Below are positions 31,848 to 37,849 of a stretch of DNA of 64,000 bases, one piece after another (the first letter of the stretch is position 1; each line of letters begins with the position of its first letter). Both the position numbers and the translations under genes were made by a program. A model generated the notes under the pieces. The model had not been told where the DNA came from and did no database searches. It saw only the letters and a program-made list of their open reading frames with translations. Source of the stretch: Bacteriovoracaceae bacterium UBA4573 (GTDB lineage Bacteria > Bdellovibrionota > UBA1018 > UBA923); contig DGKJ01000029.1 in NCBI GenBank assembly GCA_002387735.1, positions 5,015-69,014 of the forward strand. Direction: 5' to 3'.

Positions 31848-32516
31848 ATGAGCACCCTCACTTTATTTGATCTCGATCAAACTTTGATTCGCGAGGACAG
31901 TGACACCGAGTGGACGCATTTTTTGATCGACCAAGGAGTGTTGCCGAAAGAAGCGACCCTAAAAAAAATAAATCTATATATGAAGCAGTACGTCGAAGGA
32001 CGACTCGATATCCTCGAGTACCTGACCTTTCAACTACGTCCTTTCGCCCTTTTCCCACGCCCCCAACTTGAATCCTGGCGCGCTCAGTTTTTTCGTGAAC
32101 GAATCCTGCCAATCATCACCGAAAAGGCTAAAGAATTGGTTCGAACAGAACTTAAAAAATCCGACTACACGGCGATCATTACCGCGACCAACACCTTCGT
32201 GGCAGAACCCATTGCGCAAGCTTTTGGAATACCCTACCTAATCGCAACTCAGCTTCAGGAAAAAAAAGGGGTATTTACCGGACAACCTCGCGGAACCCCA
32301 TGCTTTCGTGAAGGAAAAATAACCAACCTCAACGCCTGGTTGAAAAAGAGAAAGCTCAAGTGGGAAGATTTTTCTCTCACACGCTTCTACAGTGATTCCC
32401 AAAATGATATCCCCTTAATGAGCCGCGTCACCGAACCGGTCGCAGTGGATCCAGATCCTGTTTTGCTAAAACATGCCCAGACGAAAAAATGGCCTATTAT
32501 CAGCTTGGCTGACTAA
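31848..32516 (+). CDS. HAD-IB subfamily hydrolase (phosphoserine-phosphatase-like)
   Basis: Motif I LFDLDQTL (DxD). Motif II ATNTF. Lys and terminal DSxND (YSDSQNDIP). Confidence 0.7.
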   Translation: MSTLTLFDLDQTLIREDSDTEWTHFLIDQGVLPKEATLKKINLYMKQYVEGRLDILEYLTFQLRPFALFPRPQLESWRAQFFRERILPIITEKAKELVRTELKKSDYTAIITATNTFVAEPIAQAFGIPYLIATQLQEKKGVFTGQPRGTPCFREGKITNLNAWLKKRKLKWEDFSLTRFYSDSQNDIPLMSRVTEPVAVDPDPVLLKHAQTKKWPIISLAD

Positions 32517-32535
32517 TCGATTGGAAACTCGTATA

Positions 32536-34542
32536 ATGAAATTTATGAAAAAACTCTCCACCCTAGTATTGGTTGCCACACTCTTCATCACTCAACCTGC
32601 ATTCGCATTTAAGTTTTTCTCTGGCGGCCTAGATTGCCCGGTTCTGCCCCACATCACTAAAGGGTTTCTCGCAAATCACGTTCAAGTCAGAGAACTCGAC
32701 CCGTCAATTGAACTTCGCACGGTTGATCAGTTTATCAAACGACTCGACCCCTCTAAGCTTTATTTGCTAGAGAGCGATGTAGCCGAGATTCGAGAGAGTT
32801 TTAAGGACATTTTCAGCAAACTTGGTAACGATTGCTCGGCCATCGAGAAGTCACAAAAAATTCTTACGAATCGTTTATCGGAAGCCTTTGTTTTCGTGAA
32901 AAAATCGCTCGGAAAAGATTTCAAATTCCAGGAAAACACGGAACTTACAATTGATCCCCAACTTCGAAAGACCCCTAAAGATAAAAAAGAGGCCGAAGAA
33001 CTGCTTGGAAAATTTTTGCAGTTCCAAATTTCAAACTATCTTGCCACCGACATGAAACTCGAACAGGCAAAAAAACAACTAATTCATCGCTACGAACTTG
33101 CACTGGCTCGCCAGAAAAAGCAGAAAAAAGATGAAGTTCACAGCATGTTTTTGGACTCCTTCGCTTCTTCGCTCGACTCCCATTCCTCGTATCTTTCCCA
33201 AGAAACACTGGAAGACTTCGAAATACAAATGCGACTCTCGCTTGAAGGCATTGGCGCCGCTCTTTCTTGGGAAGACGGCTACACCACGATCGACAATTTA
33301 ATCCCCGGTGGCTCCGCCGAACGATCCGGCGAGTTGCAACCCAAAGATAAAATCATTGCCGTTGCTCAAGGTGAAAAAGGGAGTTTCGAATCGGTTATTG
33401 ACCTCCAATTACGAGACGTCGTGAAACTCATTCGCGGGAAAAAAGATACCATCGTACGTTTAACTGTTCTACGCGAAGAAGGCGGCGAAGCGAAACGACT
33501 CATCGTTTCTCTCAAACGCGACAAAATCAATCTGCAAGACGAAGCCGCCAAACTCACCTACACCACTCGCAAGATCGGCGATAAGTCTCAAAAAATCGCA
33601 GTCATCGACCTGCCGTCGTTCTATGGCGATATGAGTCGCAAGACCCGATCTTCCTACGAAGACCTCAAAAAGCTGGTCGACCAAGCGGTAAGAGAAAAGG
33701 CCGACGGCATTGTATTGGACCTTTCAACCAATGCAGGTGGTTTACTGTCCGAGGCGGTTCGCATTACTGGTTTATTTATCTCGAAGGGTAACGTCGTAGC
33801 TACCAAAGGTCCCAATCAGAAACTAGACGCGCTTGACGACGACGACGATAAAATCGCCTATAGTGGTCCCCTTGTCGTTCTTACCAGCCGTCTTTCTGCG
33901 AGCGCTTCTGAAATTGTTTCCGGTGCTCTACAAGATTATAAAAGAGCCCTCATCGTGGGTGGCGATCATACTTTTGGCAAAGGCACGGTGCAGGCGATGA
34001 TGAACCTCCCTGCGGGACTCGGTGCTATTAAAGTAACCACCGGAATGTTTTACGTACCTAGTGGCAACTCCACCCAAATGCGGGGGATTCCTGCCGACAT
34101 CGTATTACCCAGTGTTTTTAGCACCAAGGATATGGGCGAGGTCAGCCTTGATTACGCGTTGCCAGCCCATAAAGTAGACCCATTTTTAAGCCCTGAGGCC
34201 ACTCAAAAACTTGCTTCGACTGTTTCTTCGGAACTTATCGCAAAGCTTCGTGCCAAATCCGAAGCTCGCGTGAGCAAAGATCCGGAGTTTAAAAAGATCA
34301 AAGACGAAGTGGCGGAATTCGAAAAGAAAAAAGGCGTCGTCAAACTGAGCGACTCGCTAAAAAAACAAAAAGAAGAAAACATTAAAGAGAAGAAAGAAAA
34401 GAAAGTCGCCAAGAAATCTCGCCGACGCCAAAGCGATGAAGACTATCTGAAAACGCCTCAAGTTAAAGAAGCAGTCGATATTTTGGGCGATTGGTTAGAG
34501 TTAAACGCCTCGAACAGTACGTTTGCTCGCACCGGCGCTTGA
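32536..34542 (+). CDS. prc: Tail-specific (C-terminal processing) protease, S41 family
   Basis: Signal peptide MKFMKKLSTLVLVATLFITQPAFA. PDZ region. S41 catalytic block GIVLDLSTNAGGLL and ...TSRLSASASEIVSGAL... with K downstream. Lys-rich C-terminus. ATG 32536 chosen to avoid overlap with the HAD gene. Confidence 0.8.
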   Translation: MKFMKKLSTLVLVATLFITQPAFAFKFFSGGLDCPVLPHITKGFLANHVQVRELDPSIELRTVDQFIKRLDPSKLYLLESDVAEIRESFKDIFSKLGNDCSAIEKSQKILTNRLSEAFVFVKKSLGKDFKFQENTELTIDPQLRKTPKDKKEAEELLGKFLQFQISNYLATDMKLEQAKKQLIHRYELALARQKKQKKDEVHSMFLDSFASSLDSHSSYLSQETLEDFEIQMRLSLEGIGAALSWEDGYTTIDNLIPGGSAERSGELQPKDKIIAVAQGEKGSFESVIDLQLRDVVKLIRGKKDTIVRLTVLREEGGEAKRLIVSLKRDKINLQDEAAKLTYTTRKIGDKSQKIAVIDLPSFYGDMSRKTRSSYEDLKKLVDQAVREKADGIVLDLSTNAGGLLSEAVRITGLFISKGNVVATKGPNQKLDALDDDDDKIAYSGPLVVLTSRLSASASEIVSGALQDYKRALIVGGDHTFGKGTVQAMMNLPAGLGAIKVTTGMFYVPSGNSTQMRGIPADIVLPSVFSTKDMGEVSLDYALPAHKVDPFLSPEATQKLASTVSSELIAKLRAKSEARVSKDPEFKKIKDEVAEFEKKKGVVKLSDSLKKQKEENIKEKKEKKVAKKSRRRQSDEDYLKTPQVKEAVDILGDWLELNASNSTFARTGA

Positions 34543-34551
34543 GAGAGTTAC

Positions 34552-35328
34552 CTAAATATCGGTCACATTCCAGGAACGTAATGTTTCGCTTTTTTCGGAA
34601 TTGGAATTCACTTTTTTAAATTTGGCTCCCGCGCGCCCATGAACCACGGCTTGGCACTCTGGCCAAGTTCGATGTTCCTGCAGTTTTCCGTTCACATAAC
34701 TGAGGTATATCGGAAAACCCGCCTCCGGCGGTCCCGAACTAGAACTGGTTTTTTTAACTCTTGGTTGGGTCGGCTCGAGCCTCGAAAGATCTACAGAATA
34801 AGAATCTGCGGGCCCATCATAGAGCTCCACGTGGTGCCCCAGTGCAAAACCTTCAGCTATCGCGTCACACCGTTCATTACCCGGAATTCCGGCGTGCCCT
34901 TCGACGTAGGTCCAACTCAAACTTGCGCGCACGGCCAGACGCTCGATAAGTGCGTCCAGCTCCTGCCACTGCCTAAGATTTGCCACGGGAGTGCCGTCTT
35001 GTTTTTTCCAACCCGCTCGTTTCCAGCCGTTGCGCCAAGAAGAGGCGCCCTGAAGCACATATTTGGAGTCGGAATATACCTGAATGGCAACAGCACTCTT
35101 TGGCAACAGACGCGCTAATTCGCGTTCAACAAAAAGTAGCGCGCACGCCACCCCCGTGAGTTCCATAATGTTATTGGTCGTAAGTGCTTCCCCCGCTCCG
35201 AGTTCTCGTACTTCGTCTCCAATACACACAATGGCCCCCCAGCCACCGGGGCCGGGATTTCCTTTGCATGCGCCGTCGCTAAAAACGACGATCTGATAAC
35301 TTGTTGCGTTATTTGGTTTACTCGACAT
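34552..35328 (-). CDS. rnhA: Ribonuclease HI with C-terminal hybrid-binding-domain-like extension
   Basis: IVVFSDGACKGNPGPGGWGAIV...ELTGV...YSDSKYV...GHAGIPGNERCDAIA is collinear with E. coli RnhA. An extra ~90 aa C-terminal, FPIYLSYVNGKLQEHRTWPECQAVVHGRAGAKFKK, resembles the RNase H1/caulimovirus HBD. Confidence 0.8.
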   Translation of the reverse strand: MSSKPNNATSYQIVVFSDGACKGNPGPGGWGAIVCIGDEVRELGAGEALTTNNIMELTGVACALLFVERELARLLPKSAVAIQVYSDSKYVLQGASSWRNGWKRAGWKKQDGTPVANLRQWQELDALIERLAVRASLSWTYVEGHAGIPGNERCDAIAEGFALGHHVELYDGPADSYSVDLSRLEPTQPRVKKTSSSSGPPEAGFPIYLSYVNGKLQEHRTWPECQAVVHGRAGAKFKKVNSNSEKSETLRSWNVTDI

Positions 35329-35398: not shown

Positions 35399-36199
35399 AT
35401 GATATTGGGAATCCTTAGTTTCGTTTTCTTGGCGACCGCTCATGCCGATACTCCGACTGTCGCGGCACCGAAAGAAAAACACACCGTTTATGTTACCCCA
35501 GACCACATGTTCGTGCCCCCCGGGTACGACAGCACTGACGTGAATGTCGAGGTTGGCCTCGTCGGAACACTCCCGAACAACTGCTTCGAACTAGCCGGTA
35601 GCCCGGTGGTCGACCATTCCCGTTTGGATCAGGGTATTATCGTTTTGCGCCAACGGGCGATCTACAAACCTAAACTGATCTGTACTCAAATTTCAGAACC
35701 CTATTTGCAAATCGCAAATCTTGGCGCGGAAATTCCAGCCGGCAACTACCAGATCATTGTTGAGTCCTCCGAAAAGCCGACTGAACCCTTTACAACAGCA
35801 ATGACCATTGCCGAAACCGAAACCGGCGACATCGACAATTTTCATTACCTCAACATTCAAGACGCCTTTCTCACGAAAAAAACGGTAGAAACGGTGGGTC
35901 AGTCCGAAGAAGAAACTCTTCTCGAAGATCCTAAAAACAAAATTAAACGCTTTTTAAATCTGCGCGGCGAACACCGCAACGTGTGCGTCAGTCTTCGCGA
36001 CGTAGATATTAAAGTTTTTCTAAAAGAGCGCATCATTCAGGTTTTACCAATAGTCGATCTTAACCAAGATCCTTCGTGTGCTAAAAAAGTCGCTGAAGTC
36101 GTGTTTAGTGGGGAGCTTCCTAAGCTACCGGAAGGTCAGTACTTGGTTCATATTCGCTCGGCCTTCGGAAAATCTAAGAACGTTTTGGTTGATTTTTAA
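35399..36199 (+). CDS. Secreted hypothetical protein
   Basis: Signal peptide MILGILSFVFLATAHA. No recognisable catalytic motif. Confidence 0.45.
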   Translation: MILGILSFVFLATAHADTPTVAAPKEKHTVYVTPDHMFVPPGYDSTDVNVEVGLVGTLPNNCFELAGSPVVDHSRLDQGIIVLRQRAIYKPKLICTQISEPYLQIANLGAEIPAGNYQIIVESSEKPTEPFTTAMTIAETETGDIDNFHYLNIQDAFLTKKTVETVGQSEEETLLEDPKNKIKRFLNLRGEHRNVCVSLRDVDIKVFLKERIIQVLPIVDLNQDPSCAKKVAEVVFSGELPKLPEGQYLVHIRSAFGKSKNVLVDF

Positions 36200-37366: not shown

Positions 37367-37849
37367 TCAGTGGTGGTGGTGCCCGCCGCGCCCGTGGGCG
37401 TGACCATGAGATAATTCTTCTGGAGTAGCAGCGCGTATTTCAACGATTTCAACGTCGAAAAACAAATCTTGTCCCGCAAGTGGGTGGTTGCCATCAACGC
37501 TCACGTGAGTTGCCGAAGTCTTAACAACGGTAAATACCGGAGACGCTTCCTGATCCGAACCCGGACCACCGATTTTAAATTGCATTCCTACTTGAATGTC
37601 TTCGTTTGGAGGGAACTGAGTGCGTGGCACGTCGAATGCTAGTTCGCTATCTTTTTCGCCGTAAGCGTCTTTAGCTTTCACTTCTACTTTTTTCTTATCT
37701 CCGCTAGCGCAGCTTTTTAACTGAGATTCCAGTCCTGGAATGATTTGACCGCTACCTTCAAGATAAGTCATGGGTTCGCCGCCTGAAGAACTATCGAGTA
37801 GCTCACCGCTTTTATTTTTGAGAACGTAGTGAAAACTTACAACACGCAT
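37367..37849 (-). CDS. slyD: FKBP-type peptidyl-prolyl isomerase / metallochaperone SlyD with His-rich tail
   Basis: Collinear with E. coli SlyD (VSFHYVLK...LEGSGQIIPGLE...VDGNHPLAGQDLFFDVEIVEIRAATPEELSHGH). C-terminal HGHAHGRGGHHHH. Confidence 0.8.
   Translation of the reverse strand: MRVVSFHYVLKNKSGELLDSSSGGEPMTYLEGSGQIIPGLESQLKSCASGDKKKVEVKAKDAYGEKDSELAFDVPRTQFPPNEDIQVGMQFKIGGPGSDQEASPVFTVVKTSATHVSVDGNHPLAGQDLFFDVEIVEIRAATPEELSHGHAHGRGGHHHH

What the first reader, a model, noticed from the sequence alone, without database searches (positions are those of the whole stretch)
34552..35328. RNase HI with a C-terminal hybrid-binding-domain-like module
The first ~165 aa are canonical RnhA. The extra ~90 aa contain FPIYLSYVNGKLQEHRTWPECQAVVHGRAGAKFKK, which matches the RNase H1 N-terminal hybrid-binding domain (HBD / caulimovirus ORF VI domain) pattern Y.V..G...GI(Y)..W.EC...V.G..GA.(Y/F)K. 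In eukaryotic and the few bacterial HBD-containing RNases H the HBD is N-terminal. A C-terminal placement is an unusual permutation and may alter processivity on RNA:DNA hybrids.
Basis: partly seen in the sequence, partly recalled or inferred. Interest (0 to 1): 0.55.

Follow-up and report, generated by a model that had tools for sequence, protein, structure and literature searches.

The report
RNase HI with C-terminal hybrid-binding domain
This gene encodes an ordinary housekeeping RNase HI carrying a small RNA:DNA-hybrid-binding domain at its C-terminal end; that layout is real, but it was described in Bdellovibrio, Myxococcus and Gloeobacter in 2007 and is widespread in bacteria.

Summary
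Window 34552..35328 (minus strand) is a 258-aa ORF. It has an E. coli-type RNase HI core (Pfam RNase_H, residues 12-159, E=1.9e-32; 40% identical to E. coli RnhA; all five catalytic residues present). A ~25-residue low-confidence linker follows, then a C-terminal module at residues ~206-253.

That module is a genuine hybrid-binding domain (HBD/dsRHbd, Pfam PF01693):
- It passes the Pfam cut-off narrowly on its own (21.1 against 21 bits). 40 of 43 family members also hit PF01693.
- A family profile finds the yeast (1QHK, E=1e-6) and human (3BSU, E=3.5e-5) HBDs.
- AlphaFold gives a confident beta-beta-alpha-beta-alpha fold whose best PDB matches are those two structures.
- The human hybrid-contact residues W43, F58, K59, K60 align without gaps to W222, F237, K238, K239 (Y29 to Y208). 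W222 and K239 are invariant across homologues; F237 and K238 vary only F/Y (one H) and K/R.

The "unusual permutation" claim is not new. Kochiwa et al. 2007 listed C-terminal dsRHbd RNases HI, including Bdellovibrio bacteriovorus (RNH 18-164, dsRHbd 207-248). I found the same order in every complete gene among 65 genomes from five or more phyla, and 435 cluster representatives at E<=1e-10. Any effect of domain order on processivity is untested. Interest is low.

The parts
34552..35328 (-). Complete rnhA-type CDS, 258 aa plus stop codon (34552-34554)
   Evidence: ORF list. 120 homologues cover 93-100% of it. AlphaFold mean pLDDT is 91.8.
34789..35295 (-). RNase HI catalytic domain: residues 12-180 (Pfam match 12-159, plus the conserved C-terminal tail LYxGPxxxYxxD to about residue 180). 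Catalytic residues D18, E56, D87, H145, D155. Basic protrusion around residues 98-121.
   Evidence: Pfam RNase_H E=1.9e-32. 40% identity to E. coli RNase HI, aligned through the basic protrusion. Foldseek to E. coli RNase HI structures gives E~5e-18 and TM 0.84. The five catalytic residues are invariant in 116 sequences.
34714..34788 (-). Flexible linker, residues ~181-205 (SRLEPTQPRVKKTSSSSGPPEAGFP), poorly conserved and variable in length
   Evidence: pLDDT falls to 59-74 here. There is no consensus in the alignment. The segment between core and HBD measures 31-65 residues in homologues, median 40.
34570..34713 (-). Hybrid-binding domain (HBD/dsRHbd, PF01693), residues 206-253. Strands 207-212, 215-219, 236-240; helices 222-229, 243-252. 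Contact-residue equivalents Y208, W222, F237, K238, K239.
   Evidence: Pfam Cauli_VI. Profile hits to 1QHK and 3BSU. Isolated-domain model has pLDDT 90 with beta-beta-alpha-beta-alpha topology. Best PDB fold hits are 1QHK and 3BSU, TM 0.70-0.72, rmsd 2.3-2.4 A. Residue conservation.
34555..34569 (-). Short unconserved C-terminal tail, residues 254-258 (NVTDI)
   Evidence: Lower pLDDT and no conservation.

Best explanation
The gene encodes a housekeeping type-1 RNase H (RNase HI). It belongs to the already described subgroup that carries its hybrid-binding domain at the C-terminus. The N-terminal 180 residues form an E. coli-like catalytic domain with the DEDD+H active site and the basic protrusion. 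This domain cleaves the RNA strand of RNA:DNA hybrids by two-metal catalysis. A flexible linker of about 25 residues tethers a 48-residue beta-beta-alpha-beta-alpha HBD. By analogy with the human HBD, the HBD is inferred to bind the hybrid duplex independently, through W222, F237, K238 and K239 (with Y208). That would raise substrate affinity and keep the enzyme on the hybrid between cuts. Shown here: domain identities, fold, conservation of catalytic and contact residues, conserved domain order across phyla, and chromosomal housekeeping context. Inferred: actual hybrid binding, any gain in affinity or processivity, and the view that domain order has little effect because the tether is long and disordered.
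For: Catalytic core: Pfam RNase_H E=1.9e-32. 40% identity to E. coli RnhA, including the basic protrusion. Structural match to E. coli RNase HI at E~5e-18. D18/E56/D87/H145/D155 are invariant in 116 homologues. HBD: PF01693 hit in the query and in 40 of 43 relatives. Profile hits to the yeast and human HBD structures. hhalign gives 95.6%. The isolated-domain model is confident (pLDDT 90), and its top five PDB fold matches are all HBDs. Its top annotated viral matches are RNase H and caulimovirus P6 proteins. The module aligns without gaps to the human HBD, so that W43/F58/K59/K60 correspond to W222/F237/K238/K239 and Y29 to Y208. W222, K239 and Y208 are invariant; F237 is F or Y in 115 of 116 and K238 is K or R in all 116. 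Trp43, Lys59 and Lys60 form the human HBD binding surface, and W43A or deletion of FKK abolishes hybrid binding (PMC6846478). Architecture: all 120 listed homologues are full length. The order RNase H then HBD holds in all 62 loci, out of 65 genomes, where the core is not lost at a contig end or ORF break. 144 of the top 150 representatives carry the module at the extreme C-terminus. The layout was published in 2007. Context: the neighbours are Prc protease, a HAD hydrolase, a flavoprotein, a SlyD-like FKBP and lipoamide dehydrogenase, with no mobile or defence genes.
Against: No biochemical data exist for any C-terminal-HBD RNase HI in the literature I could search. The query's own Pfam HBD score is only just above the cut-off (21.1 against 21) and covers 23 of the 44 model positions. 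Foldseek E-values for the 56-residue domain are weak (0.3-0.5), although the top hits are the right family. HBDs also bind dsRNA and, in human cells, proteins such as P32 (PMC3750045 abstract), so the preferred ligand is not proven. The NCBIfam RNase HI equivalog score (146.6) is below its cut-off of 160.
Confidence: 0.85

Rival explanations
1. The C-terminal HBD has the same fold, but its position gives the enzyme a different cleavage geometry or polarity from N-terminal-HBD enzymes. For example, it might cut at a fixed distance from the opposite hybrid end, or show different processivity.
For: The C-terminal-type modules form a recognisable sub-family with their own invariant positions: C225, G231, W253 and the YLSxVxG motif. 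Domain order is strictly conserved across phyla, so the arrangement is under selection. Kochiwa et al. noted that C-terminal dsRHbds resemble each other.
Against: The linker is long (median 40 residues between core and HBD, range 31-65), variable and predicted to be disordered. That argues against a rigid geometric constraint. The contact residues are the same as in N-terminal HBDs. No data were found either way.
Confidence: 0.2
2. The C-terminal module is an HBD-fold domain whose main role is not hybrid binding. It might instead bind dsRNA or recruit a partner protein such as a replisome or SSB-like factor.
For: The domain was originally named dsRHbd because it binds dsRNA as well as hybrids (PMC1950709). 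The human HBD also binds the protein P32 (PMC3750045 abstract). The same module is found fused to other enzymes, namely YbeY-RNase H and a PIF1-like helicase.
Against: The residues that form the hybrid-binding surface in the human domain are invariant or conservatively replaced in this family. The domain is nearly always attached to an RNase H core, whose substrate is the hybrid.
Confidence: 0.08
3. The extension is an artefact: a chance motif match, a read-through, or two genes fused by a sequencing error.
For: The query's own Pfam score is marginal. Single-sequence phmmer against the PDB is weak, at E=0.012.
Against: The same continuous ORF architecture occurs in hundreds of independent assemblies. 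The module folds confidently. Profile-level statistics are strong.
Confidence: 0.01

Closest known systems
RNase HI with C-terminal dsRHbd of Bdellovibrio bacteriovorus, Myxococcus xanthus and Gloeobacter violaceus (Kochiwa et al. 2007, BMC Evol Biol 7:128)
   Same: The domain order is the same, RNase H then dsRHbd/HBD. The boundaries are nearly the same: B. bacteriovorus has RNH 18-164 and dsRHbd 207-248, while this protein has RNase_H 12-159 and HBD 206-253. Named Bdellovibrio homologues align over 95% of the length (P0048, P0118).
   Different: Identity to named Bdellovibrio proteins is only about 42-45%. The three published sequences themselves were not fetched or compared. None of them has been characterised biochemically, as far as I could find.
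Human and yeast RNase H1 (HBD structures 3BSU and 1QHK)
   Same: They also combine an HBD, a flexible linker and a catalytic domain that has a basic protrusion. The HBD fold matches, and so do the contact residues W43/F58/K59/K60, plus Y29.
   Different: In the eukaryotic enzymes the HBD is N-terminal; here it is C-terminal. The linker here is shorter, about 25-40 residues. HBD identity is only about 30%.
E. coli RNase HI (RnhA)
   Same: 40% identity over the catalytic domain, the same DEDD+H active site and basic protrusion, and structural TM of 0.84.
   Different: E. coli RnhA is a single-domain protein of 155 aa with no HBD. The query falls below the NCBIfam PRK00203 equivalog cut-off, at 146.6 against 160 bits.
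Bacterial N-terminal-HBD RNases HI (Bacillus halodurans, Thermotoga maritima, Shewanella and others listed in Kochiwa Table 3)
   Same: They contain the same two domain families in a single polypeptide.
   Different: The domain order is reversed. From my own knowledge, not tested here, the B. halodurans-type core lacks the basic protrusion that this protein retains.

Membership tests
Type 1 RNase H / RNase HI (Pfam PF00075) | Score above the Pfam gathering threshold | tested here: met
   112.8 bits against a cut-off of 25.8, E=1.9e-32.
Type 1 RNase H / RNase HI (Pfam PF00075) | Catalytic carboxylates D10/E48/D70/D134 and H124 (E. coli numbering) | tested here: met
   D18, E56, D87, D155 and H145 align to the E. 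coli residues. All five are invariant in 116 homologues.
Type 1 RNase H / RNase HI (Pfam PF00075) | RNase H fold | tested here: met
   The AlphaFold model (pLDDT 91.8) matches E. coli RNase HI crystal structures at E~5e-18 and TM 0.84.
Type 1 RNase H / RNase HI (Pfam PF00075) | NCBIfam equivalog PRK00203 (ribonuclease HI) curated cut-off | tested here: not met
   146.6 bits against a cut-off of 160. It is the best NCBIfam hit but falls short of equivalog level, consistent with a diverged two-domain subfamily.
Type 1 RNase H / RNase HI (Pfam PF00075) | Metal-dependent cleavage of RNA in RNA:DNA hybrids | not testable with these tools
   Requires an enzyme assay.
Hybrid-binding domain (HBD / dsRHbd / Cauli_VI, PF01693) | Score above the Pfam gathering threshold | tested here: met
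   21.1 bits for the full protein and 23.5-24.2 bits for the isolated module, against a cut-off of 21. This is marginal and covers model positions 15-37 of 44. 40 of 43 family members hit, best E=1.5e-11.
Hybrid-binding domain (HBD / dsRHbd / Cauli_VI, PF01693) | Three-stranded sheet plus two helices (beta-beta-alpha-beta-alpha) matching solved HBDs | tested here: met
   The predicted topology is E-E-H-E-H at pLDDT 90. The top five PDB hits are 1QHK and 3BSU chains, with TM 0.70-0.72 and rmsd 2.3-2.4 A, although Foldseek E-values are only 0.3-0.5 for this tiny domain.
Hybrid-binding domain (HBD / dsRHbd / Cauli_VI, PF01693) | Conserved binding-surface residues (human W43, F58, K59, K60; also Y29) | tested here: met
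   W222, F237, K238, K239 and Y208 occupy the same positions in a gap-free register. Y208, W222 and K239 are invariant; F237 is F/Y and K238 is K/R in 116 sequences. The role of the human residues comes from PMC6846478. The role of Y29 is from my own knowledge of the 3BSU structure.
Hybrid-binding domain (HBD / dsRHbd / Cauli_VI, PF01693) | Binding of RNA:DNA hybrid (and dsRNA) | not testable with these tools
   Requires EMSA or SPR.
C-terminal-dsRHbd RNase HI subgroup (Kochiwa et al. 2007) | Domain order RNase H then dsRHbd in one polypeptide | tested here: met
   Core at residues 12-159 and HBD at 206-253. The same order holds in all complete genes among 65 genomes.
C-terminal-dsRHbd RNase HI subgroup (Kochiwa et al. 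2007) | Direct sequence similarity to the B. bacteriovorus, M. xanthus and G. violaceus proteins | not tested
   Those three sequences were not retrieved. Indirect support comes from full-length homologues named Bdellovibrio sp. (P0020, P0048, P0118) and cyanobacterial ones (P0081, P0105, L003).

The most novel reading that the evidence does not exclude
The C-terminal tethering of the HBD, conserved across at least five bacterial phyla, gives these RNases HI a cleavage-site positioning or processivity that differs from N-terminal-HBD enzymes such as human RNase H1. For example, the HBD might anchor at the opposite end of the hybrid. No member has been characterised, so this would be a new functional variant of RNase H1-type enzymes.
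Probability: 0.15. Interest if true: 0.4.

Novelty: already known. Interest (0 to 1): 0.15.

Why it matters
It matters little for discovery. The gene is a correctly identifiable housekeeping RNase HI, and its two-domain layout was catalogued in 2007 and is annotated in public databases. The remaining value is practical. The C-terminal-HBD subgroup is large (435 cluster representatives at E<=1e-10) and phylogenetically broad. It includes Bdellovibrionota, Cyanobacteria, Chloroflexota, Elusimicrobiota and Patescibacteria. It appears to be biochemically uncharacterised. It therefore offers a natural experiment on whether HBD position affects RNase H positioning and processivity on R-loops and primers. 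The compact HBD could also be another source of hybrid-binding probes.

Tried and rejected
- Single-sequence phmmer of the C-terminal 57 aa against the PDB gave only a weak hit to 1QHK (E=0.012), alongside spurious polyketide cyclase hits. The profile search replaced it.
- The search for related loci with the 43-sequence HBD alignment failed because no stretch was conserved enough. I re-ran it with a 13-sequence subset sharing GAKFKKV, so that survey is biased to that motif variant.
- The Nowotny 2008 HBD structure paper (tried as PMC2323259) is not held. Residue roles are cited from PMC6846478 instead.
- Phrase searches for 'C-terminal HBD' returned only heparin-binding and helicase-binding domains. 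No biochemical study of a C-terminal-HBD RNase HI was found.
- The antisense ORF at 34639..35118 (+, 159 aa) and other short overlapping ORFs were dismissed. They lie inside a strongly conserved coding sequence and have no support of their own.
- The gene-fusion or frameshift artefact was rejected because the architecture recurs in independent assemblies.
- The source organism was not determined. Full-length identity is about 42-46% to Bdellovibrionales, cyanobacterial and Elusimicrobia proteins alike. I ran no further search on this.
- Relative domain orientation in the full-length model could not be examined, because no coordinates or PAE are returned.

Full report
**Observation.** The coordinates given correspond exactly to a minus-strand ORF, 34552..35328. 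It runs from ATG to a stop codon at 34552-34554 and encodes 258 aa. Pfam assigns residues 12-159 to RNase_H (PF00075, E=1.9e-32). It assigns residues 220-242 to Cauli_VI / 'Ribonuclease H1 N-terminal domain' (PF01693) at 21.1 bits against a gathering score of 21. The isolated C-terminal segment scores 23.5-24.2 bits.

**The catalytic half.**
- The N-terminal part is 40% identical to E. coli RNase HI across the whole catalytic domain.
- D18, E56, D87, H145 and D155 align with E. coli D10, E48, D70, H124 and D134. All five are invariant in 116 homologues.
- The AlphaFold model built on that alignment is confident (mean pLDDT 91.8). Its best PDB matches are E. coli RNase HI crystal structures, at E~5e-18 and TM 0.84 normalised to the target.
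- The only negative is the NCBIfam RNase HI equivalog model, which scores 146.6 bits against a cut-off of 160.

**The C-terminal module.** A database search returned thousands of RNase HI relatives. The 120 best listed are 230-310 aa long and align over 93-100% of the query, so the extension is a conserved part of the protein. In the alignment the region from residue 206 to 253 is as conserved as the catalytic core. The consensus is YLSxVxGxLxRHxTWxECExRVKGxxGAKFKKVxSxxEExxxLKxWG, with Y208, W222, C225, G231, K239 and W253 invariant.
- Forty of 43 such modules hit PF01693 individually, best E=1.5e-11.
- A profile of them searched against all PDB sequences finds the yeast RNase H1 N-terminal domain (1QHK, E=1e-6), the human HBD (3BSU, E=3.5e-5) and full-length human RNase H1 (6VRD, E=9e-4). 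Nothing else scores below E=0.25.
- hhalign against the human HBD gives 95.6% probability.
- In the full-length model the module is strand 207-212, strand 215-219, helix 222-229, strand 236-240, helix 243-252. Modelled alone it gives the same topology at pLDDT 90.
- Its five best PDB fold matches are 1QHK and four 3BSU chains, at TM 0.70-0.72, rmsd 2.3-2.4 A, about 31% identity and probability 0.92-0.95 for the 3BSU chains (0.57 for 1QHK). E-values are only 0.3-0.5 for so small a domain.
- In the viral structure library the best annotated matches are a Pithovirus RNase H, caulimovirus transactivator/viroplasmin (P6) proteins and a phage RNase H1.
- The module aligns to human residues 27-75 with no gap. 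This places Y208, W222, F237, K238 and K239 on human Y29, W43, F58, K59 and K60.
- Trp43, Lys59 and Lys60 form the binding surface of the human HBD. W43A or deletion of F58-K60 abolishes hybrid binding (PMC6846478).
- In the bacterial family these positions are Y 116/116, W 116/116, F/Y 115/116, K/R 116/116 and K 116/116.

I conclude that the module is a complete, probably functional HBD, not a fragment. The short Pfam envelope reflects divergence at the two ends.

**Linker.** Residues ~181-205 are unconserved and rich in Ser, Pro and Lys. They have pLDDT 59-74. The segment between core and HBD measures 31-65 residues in homologues, median 40. This is a flexible tether, like the connection domain of eukaryotic RNase H1 but shorter.

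**Is the C-terminal placement unusual or new?** It is the minority arrangement, but it is not new. Kochiwa et al. 2007 (BMC Evol Biol 7:128, PMC1950709) surveyed dsRHbd (their name for the HBD) in 353 prokaryotic genomes. [quoted passage not shown] Their Table 3 lists B. bacteriovorus RNH 18-164 / dsRHbd 207-248, M. xanthus RNH 3-154 / dsRHbd 199-240 and G. violaceus RNH 1-138 / dsRHbd 156-197. These boundaries almost coincide with those found here.

Public precomputed Pfam annotations already show 'PF00075, PF01693' in that order for several homologues, which are named 'ribonuclease HI' by NCBI and JGI.

My own survey gave the following.
- A scan of one genome per GTDB species for the motif GxxGAKFKKV found 65 confirmed loci. 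They come from Bdellovibrionota (Bdellovibrio, Bacteriovorax, Oligoflexia, Pseudobdellovibrionaceae), Elusimicrobiota, Chloroflexota (Roseiflexaceae, Thermoflexus), Cyanobacteria (Drouetiella) and Patescibacteria (Saccharibacteria, Nomurabacteria, Parcubacteria).
- In 63 of the 65 loci the ORF contains an RNase H core directly upstream of the HBD. In two of these (L013, L018) only part of the core is present in the stop-to-stop ORF. The other two (L002, L011) lie within about 115 bp of a contig end, and only the HBD part was recovered.
- A full HMMER scan of 1.84 billion cluster representatives with the HBD profile found 1233 proteins at E<=1e-3 and 435 at E<=1e-10. Of the top 150, 144 carry the module within 15 residues of the C-terminus. 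Of the 85 that are at least 200 aa long, 78 have it beyond residue 150 and at the C-terminus.

**Context.** The gene is monocistronic. It is convergent with a tail-specific protease gene (Prc: Peptidase_S41 + TSP_NTD + PDZ, 32473-34542 +), and the two stop codons are 9 bp apart. It is divergent from a 266-aa ORF with a hydrophobic N-terminus and no Pfam match (35399-36199 +). Further neighbours are a HAD hydrolase, an HI0933-like flavoprotein, a SlyD-like FKBP and, judging by its sequence only, a dihydrolipoamide dehydrogenase. There are no mobile-element or defence genes nearby, and no Rfam families or tRNAs in the 64-kb window. Promoter and terminator scans around the gene are at background level. 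This is an ordinary chromosomal housekeeping setting.

**Mechanism.**
- Shown: an intact RNase HI active site and fold, an intact HBD fold and binding surface, a disordered tether, and strict conservation of the arrangement.
- Inferred: the catalytic domain hydrolyses the RNA strand of RNA:DNA hybrids. The HBD binds the hybrid independently, using the aromatic residues and the Lys pair, which increases affinity and residence time as in human RNase H1.
- Domain order: because the tether is long and variable, I expect domain order to have little effect. This is not tested.

**Verdict.** The novelty claim is not supported. This is a further member of a known, widespread and already published RNase HI architecture. 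Interest is low (0.15). The one open point is that no member of the C-terminal-HBD subgroup appears to have been characterised biochemically in the literature I could search.

Noticed in passing
Database proteins P0121, P0222, P0225, P0122, P0254, P0249: The same HBD-type module occurs in other architectures. P0121 (667 aa) has RNase_H followed by three HBD-like repeats. P0222 (400 aa) is a YbeY-RNase_H-HBD fusion. P0225 (334 aa) has two HBDs plus a PIF1-like helicase. P0122 has four tandem HBDs. P0254 has three N-terminal HBDs plus RNase_H. P0249 (1079 aa) has no Pfam domain apart from a C-terminal HBD-like module.
   Followed up: partly
window 35399-36199 (+): A 266-aa ORF divergent from rnhA has a hydrophobic, signal-peptide-like N-terminus (MILGILSFVFLATAHA) and no Pfam family at E<=1e-3.
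   Followed up: partly
window 34542-34552: The convergent Prc-like tail-specific protease gene (32473-34542 +) and rnhA end only 9 bp apart. The scan found no terminator-like hairpin between them.
   Followed up: partly
window 37367-37849 (-): A SlyD-like FKBP peptidyl-prolyl isomerase has a His-rich C-terminal tail (HGHAHGRGGHHHH), as in metal-binding SlyD proteins.
   Followed up: no
window 1-64000: No tRNA genes and no Rfam family at gathering threshold in the whole 64-kb window.
   Followed up: yes
window 34552-35328 (-), residue 184: The nearest database entry, P0001 (ENA metagenome contig of 2219 bp), is listed as 100% identical but differs at one residue, E184 here against V in P0001. 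The next closest homologue is only 58% identical, so the source lineage is poorly sampled. Full-length identity is about 42-46% to Bdellovibrionales, cyanobacterial and Elusimicrobia proteins alike.
   Followed up: partly
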